The position numbers and the translations under genes are program-made. From Cereibacter sphaeroides 2.4.1 (GTDB taxonomy: Bacteria; Pseudomonadota; Alphaproteobacteria; Rhodobacterales; Rhodobacteraceae): a DNA stretch of 32,000 nucleotides. Below, piece after piece: positions 9,973-29,171 of the stretch. Location: the NCBI RefSeq assembly GCF_000012905.2, contig NC_007493.2:1770001-1802000 (forward strand), given 5' to 3'. The notes below the pieces were generated by a model. That model made no database searches. It saw only the letters and a list, made by a program, of their open reading frames with translations, and was not told the origin of the DNA. Each line of letters begins with the position of its first letter. The stretch's first letter is position 1.

Positions 9973-10125
9973 GCGGCGGGGCCATGCCTCAAAAATGGTT
10001 AACTGATCCTCAAGATCGTCGACCTGCGCCCATGCTGCAACTGCATCAATGGCTTGTCCGAACGGATAAAAGCAGGGGTCACGCCCGAGAGACAGAGGCA
10101 CTATCCTTTTGGACAGGTATGCGCC

Positions 10126-22922: not shown

Positions 22923-24089
22923 ATGCCCGCGTCGTCCGATCTGGCCCGTCATCCCGCGCTCGACGCGGCCGCGCGCGCCGTGCTGGCGCTTCTCGAGCCT
23001 CTGGACCGGAGGGAGGGCCTCGCGCGTCTCGAAGCCCTCCATGCCGCGGCCGCCCCCGGTCCGGCCCGACGCGCGTTGCTCGCCGCCCGGATCGCGCTCC
23101 TGCGCGGCGCGCCGGCGCTGGCGCCTCCCGCCGTCATGCCGGAACCCGAGCCGGAGCCGGAGCCGCCCGCCCCCGAGCCGCCGGCGCCGAAGCCCGTGGT
23201 GATCCCGCAGCTCGATCTTTCGGCCATGATGGCGCTCTTCGAGGATGCCGAGGAGGAACCCGCCGCGGATGCCGCCCCCCCGGACGAGGGCTGGACCCGG
23301 ATCCGCCTGACCGAGGACGGCCCGCGCGGCCCCGGCCAGTTTCCGAAGGGCGCGGCACTCTCGGTGACGCTCGAGGATGCGGCGCGGCTCCTCACTGCGG
23401 GCGTCGCCGAAGAGATGGAGGCAGGTCCCGCCGAGACGGAGCCTTCGCCGCCCGATGCCCCGCAAGAGGCCGCCGTTGCAGGAGATCCTGACGCGGACGG
23501 CACGTCCGCGGAGCCGCCTCACGCCGCCGGACCTGCGCGCCGGCCGAAGCGCAGCGCGCGCCGCAAGACATCGGCCGGCGCCGCGTCCGAAGGGACCGCC
23601 GTGGAAGAGACAGCTCCCAAGGCGCGCGCCTCAAGGGGCCCGCGCCGGTCCCGGCGTGCTGCGGCCGAAGATCCCGGCACGGAGACCATCCCGGCACCCG
23701 CCACCGGCGAGAAAGAGCCGCCCTCTCCGGGTCTCCATCCGCCGACGCAGGCCGCCTTCGTGACATCCGGCGGCCAGCCCTCCGCCGACGTCCCGGCAGT
23801 GGGGCGGCTGCAGACGCTCGATGCCGCGGCCCCGGCGGCCTCGGAGGAACCGGATCCTGACGCGGTTGGCGCCCCTGAGGACGATCCCGCCCCGACCGCC
23901 AAAGGCGTTGCTCCGCCTGCAGAGGCCCCCCCTGTGCGGGGGCGGCCCCAGGGCTTCAATCCCGCCGCATTCGCCGCCCTCGCGGCCTTCGGGGACACCG
24001 ATCCCGCAGAGGATGCGGAAGAAATCGGCGGCGAACCGGGCGTCGGCAAGGCTCCAGATGGGACTGCGCCGCCCACGACGTCAGCATGA
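22923..24089 (+). CDS. Acidic Pro/Ala-rich, probably intrinsically disordered protein of unknown function (388 aa)
   Basis: ATG with a GAGGAG RBS 8 nt upstream. GC3 is high, especially in the first half. The N-terminal ~70 aa are helical, followed by a [19 protein letters not shown] linker, a short ordered-looking core ([39 protein letters not shown]), a basic patch ([12 protein letters not shown]...SRGPRRSRR) and an acidic tail. There is no signal peptide or TM segment. Other frames give only Arg/Gly-rich nonsense. Confidence 0.6.
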
Positions 24090-24369: not shown

Positions 24370-27036
24370 TCAGGCGGCGGTGGCCTGACAGGCGGCAGCG
24401 GTGCGTTCCAGCGTCGCGGGCAGGCTCTCGAGCGCGCGCGCGGCCTCAGCCGTGTTCGACGCGTCGGCTGCCGTTTCGTAGCTCGCAAGGCTGCGGTGCA
24501 GCGCCATGAGGCCCACGGCCGCCGCCGCCCCCGCCGTCCGGTGCGCGAGCTTGGCGGCCGCCAGATGATCGCCCGCCTCGTGCAGGCGCCGCATCTCGGG
24601 GAGCGCGTCGCCCGTCTCGCTCAGCACCCTGCCGATCATGCCCGCGATATAATCGGGCCCGAGATTGCCCTCGAGGTCGGCCCGCAGCTCGGCGTCGATC
24701 AGCGGCAGATCGTCGGGTGGCGGGTCGCCAGCGGGGAGCACCTCCTCGACCGCGGCGCTGGTTTCCGTGAACTGGCGGATGGCGCGAAACAGCGCCGAGC
24801 GCGTGATGGGCTTCACCAGCACGTCATTCATGCCGGCTGCGAGGAAGTCGGGGACACGGTCCGGGTCGGCATGGGCCGTGGCACCGAGGATGGGCGTGTC
24901 GGTCGAGGCGCCGGCCCGCCGGATCCGTCGCGTGGCCTCGAGCCCGTCCACGCGCGGCATCGAGACATCCATCAGGATCAGGTCGAAGCGGCGGGCGCCA
25001 GCCGCCTCGGCCGCCTCGGCGCCATCCTCGGCCGTCGCCACCTCGTGCCCCGCCATCCGCAGGATCTCGGCGAGGAGCTGACGGTTGATCGCATTGTCAT
25101 CGACCACGAGGATCGCGCGGGCGCCGTCCCCGGCCGATGGCGCATCCTCCGCGAACTCCTCCTGGGCCGCCTCGGCCCCCTGCGCCACGGGCAGCTGCAG
25201 GCGAAGCGTGAAGACGGATCCGAGCCCCAGCTTGCTCTGGACGTCGATCTGCCCGCCCATGGTCTCGGCGGCGAGCTTGGCGATGCCGAGGCCGAGGCCC
25301 GTCCCTTCGCGGATGCGCCCGTAGGAGGCGTCGAGCGTCTCGAAATTGCGGAAGATCGTGTCGAGATGCTCCTCCGCAATGCCGATGCCCGTATCGCCCA
25401 CATGGATGCAGAGGTCGACGGTGCCGGACGTGCGGCCCGGGTGCCAGAGCAGCTCGACCGAGACCTTGCCATTGTCGGTGAACTTGATGGCATTGCCGAT
25501 CAGGTTGTACATCACCCGCAGGAACAGGTGGCGCTGCCCGAGCACGGGCGGCACCGGGTTCTTGGGCTGCGCGAACCACAGCTTGTTGCCGCGCTTGTCG
25601 GCCTGCGGCTGGTTCTGCCGGATCAGCCCCTCGATGAGATCCACCGGCGAGAAGACCGTGCGGGCGTAGCTCGCGCCGTCCTTGTCCGACAGCCGCGTCA
25701 GCTCGAGCACGTTGTTCACCTGATCGAGTGCCGCCGAGCCGCAGCCGATCACGATGTCGGTGAGCCAGCGCTGTCTGTCGGTGAGATCCGTCGAGGTCTG
25801 CAGCAGGTCGGAGGCAGCCATCAGCCCGTTGAGCGGCGTCCGCATCTCGTGGCTCATGACCGCGAGGAAGCGCGACTTGGCCTCTTCGCCCTTCAGCGCG
25901 TCATTGCGCGCCTTCTTCAGGCTCTCCTCACGCTCGAGCCGCTCGGAGATGTCGCGGATGAAGGCGATGAAGAACGGATCCTGCGACGCGCCCTGCGCCT
26001 CGGCCACCGAGACCTCGACCGGGAAGGTCGAGCCGTTCGTGCGCTGCGCCATCATCGTAATGCGCCCGTCGCGCCCGGTCGGGTTCAGCTCCGCCTCTTC
26101 CTCGCCCCGCGCGTGAGGACGCAGCAACCCGTCAGCATCGTCCGTGCGGATATAGTCGACGAAATTCGTGCCTTCGGCCGTCTGCGGCGACCAGCGGAAC
26201 ATGTCCAGCGCCGCACGGTTACATTCGACCACCCGCCCCATGTGGTCGAGCACCACCACCGCATCCAGCGAGGATTCGATGGTGGCGCGCAGGTTGTGGA
26301 CCGACCGTTCGAGCAGCATTCCGCGGCGACGGCGGGCGTTGCTCTGCACGATCACCACGGCGATCAGCACCCCCATCAGCCCCAGAAGTCCGAGGGCCGC
26401 CAGTGCGAACGTCTGGAGCGACTGGCGCAGCGTCGCGCGCCGCGCGTCCGAGACGGTCATCACTTCCCCGAGCGCGCGCACCACGCCCGAGCGGACCGAT
26501 CCCGCATCCCTCTCGAGCTCCCCGATCAGCTGCGGAAGAGCGGCTCTCAGGTCCGCATCCGGCCCGTCGATGACGGGGATCCAGCGGGCGAAGAACCCCT
26601 CCGGCCCGTCGAAGATCGGCAGCACGTCGGCCTCGAGCGGTGCAATGGTGCCGCTTTCGAATCCGCGGACGATGTCCACGCGGCTGTAGAGGATGTCGAA
26701 CCTCTTGCGGAGCTCGTCGAGTCGGGCCGGATCGTCCGACCGATAGGCGGCCATCTGCGCCGCCGAGGCGAGATTCAGCACATCCACCTCGAACTGCGCG
26801 AGCACCCAGGTCCGGTTGTCGAGATGGGCGACCCGATTCTGCTCGAGCTGCTTGTCGATGTCGGAAAAGATGAAGATCGCCGCCACCAGAGCCGTGACGC
26901 CGACCGCGAGGACGAGCACATACCCCGTCCAGCGCTCGAACACGCCCCCCGGAGCCGTGTCGCGGCTTTCGGAGAACATGGCCTGAACCTCTGCTCCCCG
27001 CTCGCCTCCGTCCGGTATGCGGGGGCGCTCGGTCAT
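24370..27036 (-). CDS. Hybrid sensor histidine kinase: TM - ~150-aa periplasmic domain - TM - PAS - HisKA - HATPase - REC - Hpt (888 aa)
   Basis: - TM helices: YVLVLAVGVTALVAAIFIF and FALAALGLLGLMGVLIAVVIV.
- H-box: FLAVMSHEMRTPLNG.
- N-box: NLIGNAIKFT.
- G-boxes: DTGIGI and GTGLGLGI.
- Receiver: ILVVDDN...DLILMDVSMP...VLVKP.
- C-terminal Hpt: LAHRTAGAAAAVG.
- The start ATG overlaps the stop of the upstream gene (ATGA). Confidence 0.92.
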   Translation of the reverse strand: MTERPRIPDGGERGAEVQAMFSESRDTAPGGVFERWTGYVLVLAVGVTALVAAIFIFSDIDKQLEQNRVAHLDNRTWVLAQFEVDVLNLASAAQMAAYRSDDPARLDELRKRFDILYSRVDIVRGFESGTIAPLEADVLPIFDGPEGFFARWIPVIDGPDADLRAALPQLIGELERDAGSVRSGVVRALGEVMTVSDARRATLRQSLQTFALAALGLLGLMGVLIAVVIVQSNARRRRGMLLERSVHNLRATIESSLDAVVVLDHMGRVVECNRAALDMFRWSPQTAEGTNFVDYIRTDDADGLLRPHARGEEEAELNPTGRDGRITMMAQRTNGSTFPVEVSVAEAQGASQDPFFIAFIRDISERLEREESLKKARNDALKGEEAKSRFLAVMSHEMRTPLNGLMAASDLLQTSTDLTDRQRWLTDIVIGCGSAALDQVNNVLELTRLSDKDGASYARTVFSPVDLIEGLIRQNQPQADKRGNKLWFAQPKNPVPPVLGQRHLFLRVMYNLIGNAIKFTDNGKVSVELLWHPGRTSGTVDLCIHVGDTGIGIAEEHLDTIFRNFETLDASYGRIREGTGLGLGIAKLAAETMGGQIDVQSKLGLGSVFTLRLQLPVAQGAEAAQEEFAEDAPSAGDGARAILVVDDNAINRQLLAEILRMAGHEVATAEDGAEAAEAAGARRFDLILMDVSMPRVDGLEATRRIRRAGASTDTPILGATAHADPDRVPDFLAAGMNDVLVKPITRSALFRAIRQFTETSAAVEEVLPAGDPPPDDLPLIDAELRADLEGNLGPDYIAGMIGRVLSETGDALPEMRRLHEAGDHLAAAKLAHRTAGAAAAVGLMALHRSLASYETAADASNTAEAARALESLPATLERTAAACQATAA

Positions 27037-27560
27037 GGGTGCACGGTCAACCTGTCGAGCTGCCAGATGCTCTGACCGTAGGTCACCTCGGAGCGGTAGC
27101 GCGCATCCTCGTCATACGGGAAGATCACCCAGAGCGGCCCCTTCTCGCGGCGCGAGAAGGTCGCGCCGTCAATGTGATAGGCGATGATCGGGGCATCGTC
27201 CTCGATGGCGGAGGCGGGGATCTCTACGGCATAATCGTTGACGGCCACCGCCGAGACCGAGGCATCTTTGGCGGCCCCGAGCCGCTCGAGCAGCGTCCGC
27301 AGCGGCACGCCCTCGAACTCGTGCACGCCTTCGGTCCAGACCGTGGAGGTCTGGAAGCTGCGCGCTGGCAGCGACCGAAGCATCGGCAGATCGAACTCCG
27401 CCCGTCCCTCGGCATTCGTGACGCCGATGGCGCCCTGAACGGTGAGGAGCGGAGCCTCGACCGGGGCCGGCAGGACATCCGTCTGGGTCGCGAGGGCCGG
27501 AGCACCCGCGGCCGAGACAGCCAGAACAAGAGCCAGGAAGTTACCCGCGGCTAGGGTCAT
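27033..27560 (-). CDS. Secreted small protein resembling the molybdopterin-binding domain of YedY/MsrP-sulfite-oxidase enzymes but lacking the Mo-ligand Cys (175 aa)
   Basis: ATG 27560 has a GGAG RBS. The signal peptide is MTLAAGNFLALVLAVSAAGAPALA. The motif pattern LLTVQGAI...FDLPMLRSLP...TSTVWTEGVHEFEGVPLRTLLERLG...VAVNDYAVEIP...IIAYHIDG...GPLWVIFPY parallels that fold. The mature protein contains no cysteine. The similarity is judged by eye, not by search. Confidence 0.65.
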   Translation of the reverse strand: MTLAAGNFLALVLAVSAAGAPALATQTDVLPAPVEAPLLTVQGAIGVTNAEGRAEFDLPMLRSLPARSFQTSTVWTEGVHEFEGVPLRTLLERLGAAKDASVSAVAVNDYAVEIPASAIEDDAPIIAYHIDGATFSRREKGPLWVIFPYDEDARYRSEVTYGQSIWQLDRLTVHP

Positions 27561-27844
27561 TCCACATCTCCATTGCACAAATGCCCTCGCGAGCATCAAT
27601 ACCAAGCAAGCTTTGCTTAGACAGCACCGCTTAAGAATGCGCTAATATACCTAAGCATATATACTGACCCAACGAATGTCATGAAATCGGCGCGGGAGAG
27701 TAGAGCCATGCCACGCCACTTGTCTCTTTTCATTTTTTCGGATGTGTGCAGCTTATGGAGGGAAGGCTCGACTTTTCGGAGACTACTCCTCCGGCACGGC
27801 CGAGGCCCCCGAAGGTTTGCGTGCAGGATAGAAGCGAGCGTATC
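27561..27844. promoter_or_regulatory. AT-rich divergent control region between the sensor operon and the response-regulator gene
   Basis: GC content is visibly much lower than the flanking DNA. It contains:
- the palindrome AAGCAA-GCT-TTGCTT (27604-27618);
- the arms GCTTAG (27615-27620) and CTAAGC (27651-27656);
- TAATAT and TATACT -10-like hexamers (27643-27648, 27660-27665);
- a T-run at 27727-27738.
No confident -35/-10 pair could be assigned. Confidence 0.5.
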
Positions 27845-28477
27845 ATGACCCAGACGCCCCAAAAGCTCAGCGTTCTCATTGCCGACGATCACGAGATGGT
27901 CGTCGAGATGTTCTCGCTCTTTTTGACCGCATCCTCGGAGATGACCGTGAAGACCGCCAAGAGCCTCGACGAGGCTCTCGAGCGGATCAAGGAACACGGG
28001 CCCTTCGACGTCACCCTTCTCGATCTGAACATGCCCGGAATGAACGGGGTCGCCGGCCTCGTGCGGGCGATCAAGCTGTCCGCGGGCAAGCCGGTCGCGA
28101 TCCTGACCTCGAACCCGACCCCGCGGATGGTGGATGAGATCCTTGCTACCGGCGCCTCGGGGATCGTGCTCAAGACGACGCCGGTGCGCAGCCTCGGCAA
28201 TGCGATCCGGTTCATGCATGCGGGCGAGCATTACCTGCCGCTCGAGCTGGCGCGTGATCGGCGCCAGGCCCCCGACAGCTCGGGCGGACGGCTTACGGAA
28301 AAGGAGATGCTCGTCATGTCCTATCTGGCGGAAGGCCGCCAGAACAAGGAGATAGCGCACGGGCTTAATCTTGCCGAACCGACGATCAAGATGCATGTGA
28401 AGTCGATCTGCAAGAAGCTGGGCGCCACGAACCGCACGCAGGCCGTGGTGACGGCACGCAATCTCGGCATCATCTGA
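27845..28477 (+). CDS. Two-component response regulator, NarL/FixJ (LuxR-HTH) family (210 aa)
   Basis: Receiver motifs are VLIADDHE, TLLDLNMPGMNG (phospho-Asp), AILTSN and IVLKT. The LuxR HTH is LTEKEMLVMSYLAEGRQNKEIAHGLNLAEPTIKMHVKSICKKLGATNRTQAV. ATG 27845 is preferred over the track start at 27746. Confidence 0.9.
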   Translation: MTQTPQKLSVLIADDHEMVVEMFSLFLTASSEMTVKTAKSLDEALERIKEHGPFDVTLLDLNMPGMNGVAGLVRAIKLSAGKPVAILTSNPTPRMVDEILATGASGIVLKTTPVRSLGNAIRFMHAGEHYLPLELARDRRQAPDSSGGRLTEKEMLVMSYLAEGRQNKEIAHGLNLAEPTIKMHVKSICKKLGATNRTQAVVTARNLGII

Positions 28478-28670: not shown

Positions 28671-29171
28671 TCACGCCGCGCGGTTCAGGCGGGCCTCGGC
28701 CAGCTTCGTGAGCTTCATGTCGGCCGCCTTCTCCTCGGACAGGGTCTGCTCGAGGATCGACGCCACTTCCGGGCGCCCCAGTTCCTTCGACCAGGCGATG
28801 AGCGTGCCGTAGCGGGTCATTTCGTAATGTTCGACCGCCTGGGCCGCGGCGGCGAGGGCCGCATCCAGCACGTCCTGCTCGGCGATATCGCCCGCCACTT
28901 CATTGGCTTCCTTGATGATCCCGTCGATCGCGGGACAGGTCGTGCCCTTAGCATCCTGCCCCAGCAGGGCGAAGACGCGCTCGAGCCGCGAGACATGGGT
29001 GCGGGTCTCGTCGAGATGATGCTCGAACCCCTCGCGCAGGCCGGCGTCGCCCGCCTTCTCGATCATCTTCGGCAGCGCCTTCTCGATCTGCTGCTCGGCG
29101 TAGTAGATGTCCTGCAGCATGTGGGTATAGAGATCGTCCATCGAACGGATGTCTTTCGAGAACAAAGCCAT
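28671..29171 (-). CDS. Ferritin-like DUF892 / YciE-YciF family stress protein (166 aa)
   Basis: LYTHMLQDIYYAEQQIEKALPKMIEKA...LREGFEHHLDETRTHVSRLERVF...AAAQAVEHYEMTRYGTLIAWSKELG is the YciE/YciF four-helix pattern. An AAGGAG RBS lies 7 nt upstream. Confidence 0.85.
   Translation of the reverse strand: MALFSKDIRSMDDLYTHMLQDIYYAEQQIEKALPKMIEKAGDAGLREGFEHHLDETRTHVSRLERVFALLGQDAKGTTCPAIDGIIKEANEVAGDIAEQDVLDAALAAAAQAVEHYEMTRYGTLIAWSKELGRPEVASILEQTLSEEKAADMKLTKLAEARLNRAA

What the first reader, a model, noticed from the sequence alone, without database searches (positions are those of the whole stretch)
24370..28477. Cys-less molybdoenzyme-fold periplasmic protein translationally coupled to a hybrid H1-D1-H2 kinase, with a divergent LuxR-type regulator
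**What the sequence shows**
- The 175-aa secreted protein follows the motif order of the YedY/MsrP-sulfite-oxidase molybdopterin-binding domain (W..G...F.GV.L..LL, D.Y...IP, IIAY..DG, GPLWVIFP).
- It is only domain-sized, and its mature part has no cysteine at all. It therefore cannot ligate Mo in the canonical way.
- Its stop overlaps the start of the kinase gene (ATGA).
- The kinase has its own about 150-aa periplasmic domain of no family I recognise.
- The kinase carries a complete PAS-HisKA-HATPase-REC-Hpt relay.
- The presumptive terminal acceptor is the divergently transcribed NarL/LuxR regulator.

**Inference**
Together this looks like a three-component sensing module. A degenerate enzyme fold would have been recruited as a periplasmic co-sensor. 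Both the signal and the regulon are unknown.
Basis: partly seen in the sequence, partly recalled or inferred. Interest (0 to 1): 0.62.

Follow-up and report, generated by a model that had tools for sequence, protein, structure and literature searches.

The report
Pterin-sensor protein paired with kinase

Summary
**Observation:** confirmed. The 175-aa secreted protein has the Oxidored_molyb fold and no cysteine. Its stop overlaps the kinase start (ATGA). The kinase is TM–periplasmic domain–TM–PAS–HisKA–HATPase–REC–Hpt. A REC+GerE regulator is transcribed divergently.

**Identity:** a PruR-DTB system (Greenwich et al. 2024, PMC11194511).
- The small protein matches crystal structures of the pterin-binding protein PruR (E=6e-31; model TM 0.92–0.93).
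- Trp75 sits at the Mo-ligand position, and the pterin-contact residues N108, Y110 and W166 are kept.
- The "unrecognised" periplasmic domain is the DcpA type (hhalign 97.4%, E=1.5e-11), with WX7D in place of WX7E.
- pruR is followed by this kinase in 78 of 80 related loci, and 63 of 80 have the divergent regulator.

**Likely mechanism (inferred):** periplasmic pterin-loaded PruR docks on the kinase sensor domain. This sets a relay H396→D690→H832→regulator D60.

**New leads:**
- The Hpt histidine is invariant in 76 of 76 homologues.
- A palindrome, CCTATCC-N4-GGATAGG, marks pruR and exopolysaccharide gene promoters in most roseobacter loci.
- Cereibacter lacks that box at pruR and lacks the exopolysaccharide genes. 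The module abuts the fla1 flagellar cluster, and the only good box in the window lies upstream of fleQ. This last point is speculative.

**Verdict:** new member of a known kind.

The parts
27033..27560 (-). pruR homologue: 175-aa secreted, cysteine-free pterin-binding protein with a SUOX (sulfite-oxidase-type) fold. Signal peptide is about aa 1-24. W75 sits at the former Mo-ligand Cys position. N108, Y110 and W166 are the pterin-contact residues.
   Evidence: Pfam Oxidored_molyb 28.2 bits. phmmer E=6e-31 to 7kos/7kou A. tumefaciens PruR and 2e-29 to 7rkb. W75, N108, Y110 and W166 are invariant in 22- and 39-sequence alignments. AlphaFold model pLDDT 87.8; Foldseek top hits are PruR structures with TM 0.92-0.93 and rmsd 1.5-1.8 A. 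Zero Cys.
27033..27036 (-). ATGA stop/start overlap between pruR and the kinase gene, consistent with translational coupling.
   Evidence: Read directly from the sequence. The N-terminal extension of the kinase is kept in C. johrii and in the 63%-identical representative P0121, which aligns 30-240 to 30-240.
24370..27036 (-). DTB-type hybrid sensor histidine kinase, 888 aa: TM1, periplasmic domain, TM2, PAS, HisKA (H396), HATPase, REC (D690), Hpt (H832).
   Evidence: Pfam domains. The best NCBIfam hit is TorS TIGR02956 at 291 bits, far below its 676.5 cut-off and starting only at residue 363. Catalytic motif positions.
26416..26865 (-). DcpA-type periplasmic sensor domain (kinase aa 58-207), all-helical, carrying W77-X7-D85 where the family has WX7E. 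Presumed docking surface for PruR.
   Evidence: hhalign of 77 DTB N-termini against 3 DcpA N-termini: probability 97.4%, E=1.5e-11 over 189 columns. phmmer against 1.84 billion representatives gave 563 hits, among them the GGDEF-EAL protein P0254 at E=8.7e-12. Motif census. Model pLDDT 92.9, helical; no PDB match at E<=1e-3.
25942..26292 (-). Cytoplasmic PAS domain (kinase aa 249-365).
   Evidence: Pfam PAS 52.1 bits.
25189..25881 (-). HisKA plus HATPase_c catalytic core (aa 386-616). H-box SHEMRTP with H396; N, G1 and G2 boxes present.
   Evidence: Pfam; motif positions.
24775..25113 (-). Receiver domain (aa 642-754), phospho-acceptor D690.
   Evidence: Pfam Response_reg 101 bits; motif LILMDVSMP.
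24394..24639 (-). C-terminal Hpt domain (aa 800-881), H832 in the motif H-R-T-A-G-A-A-A-A-V-G.
   Evidence: Pfam Hpt 24.5 bits against a 24.6 cut-off. The His is invariant in 76 of 76 homologues, with consensus H-[KR]-x-A-G-S-A-A-x-F-G. Public gene calls of the C. azotoformans orthologue also list Hpt as weak.
27561..27844 (.). 284-bp divergent intergenic region between pruR and the regulator gene. It has one sigma-70-like hexamer pair on the - strand (27682..27654) and no CCTATCC-N4-GGATAGG box.
   Evidence: Promoter scan. Best box score in this region is 8 of 14. No convincing repeats.
27845..28477 (+). NarL/FixJ (LuxR-type) response regulator, 210 aa: REC (D14, D15, D60, T88, K110) plus a GerE helix-turn-helix. 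Presumed terminal phospho-acceptor.
   Evidence: Pfam Response_reg 70.4 bits and GerE 67.2 bits. An orthologue is divergently upstream of pruR in 63 of 80 related loci. 100% identical to the C. johrii protein. Residue positions and the recognition helix are conserved.

Best explanation
This is a PruR-DTB pterin-responsive phosphorelay.

**Shown here**
- The small gene encodes a secreted orthologue of the pterin-binding protein PruR. It has a SUOX-type fold. The Mo-ligating Cys is replaced by Trp, and the pterin-stacking and H-bonding residues are retained.
- It is tightly linked (ATGA overlap) to a hybrid kinase whose periplasmic domain is homologous to the PruR-binding sensor domain of the diguanylate cyclase/phosphodiesterase DcpA.
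- A LuxR-type response regulator is conserved next to the pair.

**Inferred by analogy with A. tumefaciens PruR-DcpA**
- A reduced pterin made in the cytoplasm and released to the periplasm is bound by PruR. Because the pterin's redox state can change, it may report redox conditions.
- Pterin-loaded PruR docks on the helical periplasmic domain of the kinase and shifts its kinase/phosphatase balance.
- Phosphate then runs H396 -> D690 -> H832 (Hpt) -> D60 of the regulator, which changes transcription.

**Inferred from comparative genomics**
- In most roseobacter relatives the regulon is the module itself plus a Wzx/Wzy-type exopolysaccharide cluster, marked by CCTATCC-N4-GGATAGG boxes.
- In Cereibacter those genes and the autoregulatory box are absent, and the module abuts the fla1 flagellar cluster. 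The output here is unknown. It plausibly still concerns the motile/sessile choice.
For: **PruR identity**
- Pfam Oxidored_molyb above threshold.
- E=6e-31 and 2e-29 to PDB "Pterin Binding Protein" 7kos/7kou and 7rkb.
- W75, N108, Y110 and W166 are invariant. They correspond to W70, N102, Y104 and W160 of A. tumefaciens PruR, which were shown by crystallography and mutagenesis to form the pterin site (PMC11194511 section 12).
- Model-to-structure TM 0.92-0.93. Molybdoenzymes score only TMq 0.49-0.60.

**Kinase sensor domain**
- Profile-profile probability 97.4%, E=1.5e-11, against DcpA N-termini taken from next to close PruR orthologues.
- Direct phmmer hit to a GGDEF-EAL protein.
- W-x3-Q-x3-[ED] motif at the same place.

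**Pairing**
- 78 of 80 loci have the kinase directly downstream of pruR.
- 63 of 80 have the regulator divergently upstream.
- The same order is kept across Cereibacter down to 67-70% PruR identity.

**Relay**
- All phospho-acceptor residues are present, and the Hpt His is invariant.

**Class already described**
- 23-29% of more than 5,500 pruR pairs are kinases, often near response-regulator genes (PMC11194511 sections 10 and 18; PMC13259868 section 8).
Against: - No DTB-type system has been tested experimentally. Pterin binding, PruR-kinase contact and phosphotransfer to this regulator are all inferred.
- The family's "invariant" Glu of WX7E is Asp here (W77...D85), and the Pro of the PW motif is Val.
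- I could not check whether this genome makes monapterin or has PruA, because only the window was available.
- Cereibacter lacks the box upstream of pruR that most relatives have, so its wiring may differ.
- The cytoplasmic PAS domain could supply a second or dominant input.
Confidence: 0.8

Rival explanations
1. The small protein is a PruR-fold co-sensor, but its ligand in Cereibacter is not a pterin (some other heterocycle or periplasmic cue), or it regulates the kinase without any ligand.
For: Ligand binding was not tested. The Pro of the PW motif is Val, and the partner's motif is WX7D rather than WX7E. PruR crystal structures show several alternative binding poses for neopterin (PMC11194511 section 12), so the pocket is not rigidly specific.
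Against: The three residues that sandwich and hydrogen-bond the pterin ring are invariant across all 39 homologues and the four crystallised proteins. The model superposes on pterin-bound 7rkb at rmsd 1.6 A.
Confidence: 0.1
2. The adjacent LuxR-type regulator is not the terminal acceptor. The hybrid kinase instead feeds another regulator or a c-di-GMP enzyme elsewhere, and the neighbour belongs to a different circuit.
For: 16 of 80 related loci have no such regulator within about 6 kb. Hybrid kinases with an Hpt domain can serve distant regulators. The authors of the class leave open a link to c-di-GMP (PMC11194511 section 18).
Against: The regulator orthologue is divergently upstream in 63 of 80 loci across many genera. 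The palindromic box typical of LuxR/NarL dimers co-occurs with the regulator: 53 of 64 loci with it against 5 of 16 without, Fisher p=1.3e-4. The box sits in front of pruR in 58 of 80 loci.
Confidence: 0.08
3. The small protein is a genuine small molybdoenzyme of the YedY/MsrP or sulfite-oxidase type, as its public annotation "molybdopterin-dependent oxidoreductase" implies. Its linkage to the kinase would then be metabolic rather than sensory.
For: Pfam Oxidored_molyb hit. Public records name it that way. Foldseek also finds sulfite dehydrogenases and YedY at lower rank.
Against: There is no cysteine at all, and Trp occupies the ligand position. It is domain-sized at 150 aa mature, against 260-450 aa for the enzymes. 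TM to the enzymes is only 0.24-0.40 of their length, against 0.92 for PruR. PruR structures lack the deep MoCo cleft and the long beta-hairpin (PMC11194511 section 12).
Confidence: 0.02

Closest known systems
PruR-DTB systems (Greenwich et al. 2024 PNAS, PMC11194511; Rucker et al. 2026 review, PMC13259868, illustrated with Ruegeria pomeroyi WP_011045932.1)
   Same: A secreted Cys-less PruR gene lies immediately upstream of a kinase with a DcpA-type periplasmic domain, a PAS domain, a TorS/BaeS-like HisKA-HATPase core and a REC domain, with a response-regulator gene nearby. 78 of 80 relatives share this layout.
   Different: Here the motif is WX7D rather than WX7E, and VW rather than PW. The published descriptions do not mention the Hpt domain, which I find universally conserved in this clade. 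Unlike most roseobacter relatives, Cereibacter lacks the flanking exopolysaccharide genes and the palindromic box in front of pruR, and sits next to the fla1 flagellar cluster instead. No DTB system has been characterised experimentally.
PruR-DcpA of Agrobacterium tumefaciens (Atu3496-Atu3495), with Klebsiella, Vibrio and Pseudomonas homologues
   Same: Same periplasmic pterin-binding protein: 43% identity, same fold, same pterin residues. The partner's sensor domain is homologous (hhalign E=1.5e-11). Same two-gene operon logic.
   Different: The partner's output is GGDEF-EAL (c-di-GMP turnover) there, and a His-Asp-His-Asp phosphorelay to a transcription factor here.
TorT-TorS-TorR (E. coli TMAO sensing)
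   Same: A periplasmic ligand-binding protein regulates a hybrid HisKA-REC-Hpt kinase through its helical periplasmic domain. TorS is the best-scoring named kinase family for the cytoplasmic part.
   Different: TorT is a periplasmic-binding-protein fold unrelated to PruR. The TorS match starts only at residue 363 and reaches 291 of the 676.5 bits required, so this is not TorS. The regulator is NarL/FixJ-type, not OmpR-type TorR.
Sulfite-oxidase-family molybdoenzymes (SorA, SoxC, chicken sulfite oxidase, YedY/MsrP)
   Different: No Mo-ligand Cys. The hairpin and cleft are truncated (from the PruR structures). There is no dimerisation or haem domain. The function is ligand sensing rather than catalysis.
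QseG-QseE (outer-membrane lipoprotein plus kinase with a helical sensor domain; PDB 9m08)
   Same: An accessory periplasmic protein binds an all-helical kinase sensor domain. It appears among the weak structural neighbours of the sensor-domain model.
   Different: The structural similarity is not significant (E=0.16), and QseG is unrelated to PruR.

Membership tests
PruR (periplasmic pterin-binding protein) | SUOX/Oxidored_molyb-type fold of domain size (about 140-150 aa mature) | tested here: met
   Pfam 28.2 bits, above the gathering score of 24. AlphaFold model pLDDT 87.8. Foldseek to 7kos/7kou/7rkb gives TM 0.92-0.93 and rmsd 1.5-1.8 A.
PruR (periplasmic pterin-binding protein) | N-terminal secretion signal | tested here: met
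   By inspection only: a hydrophobic stretch FLALVLAVSAAGAPALA followed by ALA|TQ. Residues 1-30 have low pLDDT, and the PDB constructs begin at the equivalent of residue 27-30. No signal-peptide predictor was available. The n-region has no Lys or Arg, unlike its Cereibacter homologues.
PruR (periplasmic pterin-binding protein) | Mo-coordinating Cys absent and replaced by Trp | tested here: met
   No Cys in 175 aa. W75 aligns with A. tumefaciens W70 and is invariant.
PruR (periplasmic pterin-binding protein) | Pro-Trp (PW) motif, described as conserved in most homologues | tested here: not met
   V74-W75 here. The Rhodobacterales clade has I/V-W. The paper says "most", so this is a clade variant rather than a disqualifier.
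PruR (periplasmic pterin-binding protein) | Pterin-ring contacts Asn/Tyr/Trp (A. tumefaciens N102, Y104, W160) | tested here: met
   N108, Y110 and W166 are invariant in alignments A1 and A2.
PruR (periplasmic pterin-binding protein) | Binds reduced pterin (tetrahydromonapterin preferred) | not testable with these tools
   Needs purified protein.
PruR-DTB system | pruR immediately upstream of a gene with two TM segments flanking a periplasmic loop of about 138-150 aa | tested here: met
   ATGA overlap. Hydrophobic segments at about aa 36-57 and 208-231 enclose about 150 aa. The model shows long helices through both.
PruR-DTB system | Periplasmic domain homologous to that of DcpA | tested here: met
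   hhalign probability 97.4%, E=1.5e-11, 189 columns. phmmer hit to GGDEF-EAL protein P0254 at E=8.7e-12.
PruR-DTB system | WX7E motif in the periplasmic domain | tested here: inconclusive
   W77 is present and Q81 is conserved, but position +8 is Asp (WVLAQFEVD). C. johrii and 5 other homologues among the 78 kinase homologues from related loci that were examined also have Asp; the rest have Glu. The carboxylate is retained, but the strict motif is not.
PruR-DTB system | Cytoplasmic TorS/BaeS-like two-component kinase module, often with PAS and/or REC | tested here: met
   PAS, HisKA, HATPase, REC and Hpt. The best NCBIfam hit is TorS.
TorS (TMAO sensor kinase, TIGR02956) | Full-length match above the equivalog cut-off, including the TorT-binding sensor domain | tested here: not met
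   291.3 bits against a 676.5 cut-off. The match covers only residues 363-865.
Sulfite-oxidase-family molybdoenzyme (incl. YedY/MsrP) | Conserved Cys ligand to Mo on an extended beta-hairpin; full catalytic domain | tested here: not met
   No Cys. TM normalised to the enzyme is 0.24-0.40. SoxC NCBIfam scores 13 bits against a 420 cut-off.
NarL/FixJ-type response regulator | REC domain with acidic pocket, phospho-Asp, Thr and Lys, plus a C-terminal GerE helix-turn-helix | tested here: met
   Pfam REC 70.4 bits and GerE 67.2 bits. D14, D15, D60, T88 and K110 present.

The most novel reading that the evidence does not exclude
In Cereibacter the PruR-DTB-regulator module may have been uncoupled from the exopolysaccharide cluster it accompanies in most roseobacters and rewired to the horizontally acquired fla1 flagellar system. 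The regulator would bind the two CCTATCC-N4-GGATAGG-like sites in the 153-nt region upstream of fleQ (window 10100-10117, 12 of 14 positions; 10053-10070, 10 of 14). A periplasmic pterin or redox cue would then set expression of the Fla1 master regulator through a phosphorelay instead of c-di-GMP. More generally, the box would define the first regulon for any DTB-type system.
Probability: 0.15. Interest if true: 0.6.

Novelty: new member of a known kind. Interest (0 to 1): 0.32.

Why it matters
- **Annotation.** It shows that the "molybdopterin-dependent oxidoreductase" label carried by this gene and hundreds of relatives in public records is misleading. These are sensor accessories, not enzymes.
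- **Model organism.** The kinase branch (DTB) of pterin signalling has no experimentally studied member. Cereibacter sphaeroides is genetically tractable, with well-developed motility assays, so this locus is a practical entry point.
- **Testable predictions.** The comparative data give a complete His-Asp-His-Asp relay with named residues, a cognate regulator, a candidate operator sequence, an exopolysaccharide regulon in roseobacters, and a possible link to the flagellar master regulator in Cereibacter.

Tried and rejected
- **Word-index homologue searches for the kinase N-terminus.** The search with aa 1-246 returned nothing usable: 8000 candidates, none significant. The search with the periplasmic part alone returned a single hit, P0271. 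The exhaustive phmmer search and loci-derived sequences were used instead.
- **Foldseek of the sensor-domain model against the PDB.** No match at E<=1e-3. The weak neighbours (4k0d, NarQ, QseE) only indicate a generic helical sensor bundle, so I make no claim of TorS-like structure.
- **Supplementary Dataset S1 of the PNAS paper.** It is not held, so I could not check whether this exact Cereibacter pair is already listed.
- **Operator in the pruR-regulator intergenic region.** Repeats there are short and unconvincing, and the family box is absent (best 8 of 14).
- **Strain comparison of the fleQ-upstream boxes.** The seven genomes retrieved are near-identical, so conservation says nothing.
- **Active molybdoenzyme or a TorS orthologue.** Both were considered and rejected; see the membership tests.
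- **Chance adjacency.** Rejected because of the 78 of 80 synteny.
- **AlphaFold-multimer of PruR with the sensor domain.** Not possible with the tools available.

Full report
**1. What is in the sequence**

Three genes occupy 24370-28477.
- The small gene is on the minus strand at 27033-27560. It encodes 175 aa from an ATG preceded by GGAG.
- Its TGA overlaps the ATG of the 888-aa kinase gene (24370-27036, minus strand) as ATGA at 27033-27036.
- A REC+GerE regulator is transcribed divergently. The ORF is 27746-28477 and the probable CDS is 27845-28477, 210 aa. A 284-bp intergenic region separates it from the small gene.

Pfam results:
- Oxidored_molyb for the small protein: 28.2 bits, gathering score 24.
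- PAS, HisKA, HATPase_c and Response_reg for the kinase.
- Hpt for the kinase: 24.5 bits, gathering score 24.6.
- Nothing for kinase residues 1-245.

**2. Identity of the small protein**

A sequence search of the PDB gives E=6e-31 to 7kos/7kou, E=2e-29 to 7rkb, and hits to 7kp2 and 7kom. All are deposited as pterin-binding protein PruR.

These structures belong to Greenwich et al. 2024 (PMC11194511). That paper shows the following:
- A. tumefaciens PruR is secreted and binds reduced pterins.
- It contacts the periplasmic domain of the diguanylate cyclase/phosphodiesterase DcpA.
- It has a degenerate SUOX (sulfite-oxidase-type) fold in which the Mo-ligand Cys is replaced by Trp (W70).
- The pterin ring is held by N102, Y104 and W160.

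In the window protein the equivalents are W75, N108, Y110 and W166. All four are invariant in a 22-sequence alignment that includes the four crystallised proteins, and in a 39-sequence alignment of closer homologues.

An AlphaFold model (pLDDT 87.8) superposes on the A. tumefaciens and Klebsiella PruR structures (7kos/7kou, 7rkb) with target-normalised TM 0.92-0.93 and rmsd 1.5-1.8 A. Sulfite dehydrogenases, SoxC, chicken sulfite oxidase and YedY follow at much lower coverage.

One deviation: the Pro of the PW motif is Val here, and I/V across the Rhodobacterales clade.

**3. Identity of the kinase sensor domain**

The N-terminus has two hydrophobic segments (about aa 36-57 and 208-231) around a loop of about 150 aa.

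To compare it with DcpA, I took three DcpA-type GGDEF/EAL proteins that lie directly downstream of close PruR orthologues on annotated replicons: Pseudochrobactrum, Klebsiella pneumoniae and Phyllobacterium.
- A profile of 77 kinase N-termini from related loci aligns to the profile of these three with probability 97.4% and E=1.5e-11 over 189 columns.
- An exhaustive phmmer search of 1.84 billion representative proteins with kinase aa 30-240 finds 563 proteins at E<=1e-3. Almost all hits are at the N-terminus of proteins of about 830-900 aa.
- The ten I scanned are nine kinases with modular PAS/REC/Hpt content and one GGDEF-EAL protein, P0254, at E=8.7e-12.

The family motif WX7E appears in relatives as W-T-L-S-Q-A-E-V-E. 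The window and C. johrii have W77-VLAQFEV-D85, that is WX7D. Five other relatives also have Asp.

The sensor-domain model (pLDDT 92.9) is all-helical and has no significant PDB neighbour. The weak hits are helical periplasmic sensor domains: 4k0d, NarQ and QseE.

**4. Conserved pairing**

A scan of one genome per species returned 585 relatives of the small protein. I analysed the best 80 loci, mostly Rhodobacterales with a few Hyphomicrobiales.
- In 78 of 80 loci the gene is followed at once by a homologue of this kinase, with periplasmic domain, PAS, HK core and REC.
- The two exceptions are orphan pruR genes followed by SelO or trigger factor.
- In 63 of 80 loci an orthologue of the LuxR-type regulator lies upstream on the opposite strand. 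It is directly adjacent in 22 loci and separated by one to three genes in the others.
- C. johrii JA192 has the same locus at 94.6% nucleotide identity.
- C. azotoformans and a further Cereibacter keep the order DUF892 - regulator - pruR - kinase - unknown ORF - flgB... at 67-71% PruR identity.

The literature already names this class PruR-DTB. It accounts for 23-29% of more than 5,500 unique pruR pairs and is "frequently proximal to response regulator genes". Only the DcpA branch has been studied experimentally.

**5. Phosphorelay**

All catalytic and acceptor residues are present:
- Kinase: H396 (SHEMRTP), the N, G1 and G2 boxes, D690 (LILMDVSMP) and H832 (LAHRTAG).
- Regulator: D14, D15, D60, T88 and K110.

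The Hpt domain misses the Pfam threshold by 0.1 bit. Its histidine is nevertheless invariant in 76 of 76 homologues of at least 800 aa, within H-[KR]-x-A-G-S-A-A-x-F-G. The published domain sketches of DTB proteins do not mention Hpt. This adds a detail: in this clade the relay is a full His-Asp-His-Asp chain.

**6. Most likely mechanism**

Steps 2-5 are shown. The rest is inference by homology with PruR-DcpA.
- A reduced pterin reaches the periplasm and is bound by PruR.
- The complex docks on the helical sensor domain around the W77/D85 helix and biases the kinase/phosphatase state.
- Phosphate flows to the LuxR-type regulator.
- The cytoplasmic PAS domain may add a second input.

I put 0.8 on this overall reading. 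Membership in the class is nearly certain. Pterin dependence and the identity of the acceptor are less so.

**7. Clues to the regulon (beyond the finding)**

*Exopolysaccharide synteny in relatives*
- In 42 of 80 related loci a WecG/TagA + Bac_transf fusion glycosyltransferase lies between the regulator and pruR. In 29 a GalU-like nucleotidyltransferase lies there as well.
- In 36 a Wzz/GNVR-like protein lies beyond the regulator.
- In 33-34 a Poly_export (Wza-like) gene and a Polysacc_synt_3 (Wzx-like) gene lie downstream of the kinase.

*The palindromic box*
- The palindrome CCTATCC-N4-GGATAGG occurs 146 times at 12 or more of 14 positions in 64 of these loci. Shuffled sequence gives 3-6.
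- 58 of 80 loci have it within 260 bp upstream of pruR.
- The other recurrent positions are the regulator/glycosyltransferase divergent promoter, the region upstream of the Wzz-like gene, and the Wza/Wzx divergent region.
- Presence of the box in front of pruR tracks presence of the regulator: 53 of 64 against 5 of 16, Fisher p=1.3e-4.
- This looks like the regulator's operator, and it predicts autoregulation plus control of an exopolysaccharide cluster in roseobacters. That would fit the adhesion role of PruR-DcpA.

*Cereibacter differs*
- It has no such exopolysaccharide genes in the window.
- It has no box in front of pruR in the window, in C. johrii or in C. azotoformans.
- The module instead abuts the fla1 flagellar cluster.
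- The regulator's recognition helix still matches the consensus of box-associated regulators.

*The fleQ lead*
- The only site in the window matching 12 or more of 14 positions is at 10100-10117. A 10-of-14 site lies 47 bp away at 10053-10070.
- Both are in the 153-nt gap between the SLT gene and the 366-aa sigma-54 activator. The sequence of that activator is identical to the proteins called in many C. sphaeroides genomes, among them record CM001161 (assembly GCA_000212605.1).
- I take it to be FleQ, the Fla1 master regulator (PMC7277832).
- About 10% of shuffled windows contain such a site somewhere. The strains available are too similar for footprinting. This is a lead, not a result.

**8. 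Comparison and novelty**

This is a member of the PruR-DTB class.
- It works like TorT-TorS in logic, but it is not TorS: 291 of the 676.5 bits required, with no sensor-domain match.
- It is not a molybdoenzyme.
- New here are the placement of the Cereibacter locus, the WX7D and VW variants, the conserved Hpt, the cognate regulator statistics, the candidate operator and exopolysaccharide regulon, and the fla1 adjacency.

I rate it a new member of a known kind, with interest about 0.3.

Noticed in passing
L002-L080 (e.g. L002 5898-5915, 3447-3464, 2722-2739; L004 10308-10325): The palindrome CCTATCC-N4-GGATAGG is hugely enriched: 146 sites in 64 of 80 loci, against 3-6 in shuffles. It sits upstream of pruR in 58 of 80 loci, and at the promoters of the neighbouring exopolysaccharide genes and the regulator. 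It co-occurs with the LuxR-type regulator (p=1.3e-4). It is a candidate operator and defines a candidate regulon for DTB systems; the papers I read do not mention it.
   Followed up: yes
L002 1149-5887 and 9080-11743, and equivalents in about 34-42 of 80 loci: In roseobacters the pruR-kinase pair is embedded in a Wzx/Wzy-type exopolysaccharide cluster. The cluster comprises a WecG+Bac_transf fusion glycosyltransferase, a GalU-like gene, a Wzz/GNVR-like gene, Poly_export (Wza) and Polysacc_synt_3 (Wzx). None of these is in the window.
   Followed up: yes
window 10053-10070 and 10100-10117: Two box-like sites (10 of 14 and 12 of 14 positions) lie in the 153-nt gap between the SLT gene stop (10126) and the start (9972) of the sigma-54 activator, which is identical to the protein called in many C. 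sphaeroides genomes and which I take to be FleQ. This is a possible target of the neighbouring regulator. Chance of at least one such site anywhere in the window is about 0.1. The sites are identical in seven near-identical strains, which is uninformative.
   Followed up: partly
window 259-22833: The left two-thirds of the window is the Cereibacter sphaeroides fla1 flagellar cluster: fliR, flhB, an rpoN-type sigma-54 gene, fliC, fliD, fleQ, SLT, flgL, flgK, flgH, flgG, flgE and flgD by Pfam, then flgC/flgB by position and the C. azotoformans gene calls. The pruR module sits at its edge. This adjacency is kept in C. johrii, C. azotoformans and a third Cereibacter.
   Followed up: partly
window 22923-24089 (+): A Pro/Ala/Glu-rich 388-aa ORF with no Pfam hit lies between the kinase gene and flgB, convergent with the kinase. 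Its C. johrii counterpart is only about 60% identical, while neighbouring genes are 94-100%. C. azotoformans has a 269-aa no-Pfam gene in the same place. It is either fast-evolving or disordered. Function unknown.
   Followed up: no
L084 8381-9034, L086 8344-9033: C. azotoformans and another Cereibacter carry an extra 217-229-aa gene with no Pfam family between DUF892 and the regulator. The window has only about 190 bp there.
   Followed up: no
P0271 (Sulfitobacter sp. HNIBRBA3233): A stand-alone 182-aa "hypothetical protein" resembles the kinase periplasmic domain (37% identity over 75% of it). It may be a truncated or free-standing sensor domain.
   Followed up: no
public records seen: PruR homologues are almost uniformly named "molybdopterin-dependent oxidoreductase" or "oxidoreductase" in NCBI/UniRef records. 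644 plasmid records carry a homologue, 265 of them from Klebsiella. This is a systematic misannotation.
   Followed up: partly
L053 2377-3869: An uncultured Rhodobacteraceae genome also has flgB/flgD near its regulator-pruR-kinase module, but on the regulator side, which is a different arrangement from Cereibacter.
   Followed up: no
window 28671-29171 (-): A DUF892 (ferritin-like, YciE/YciF-type) gene lies next to the regulator. This is conserved within Cereibacter only.
   Followed up: no
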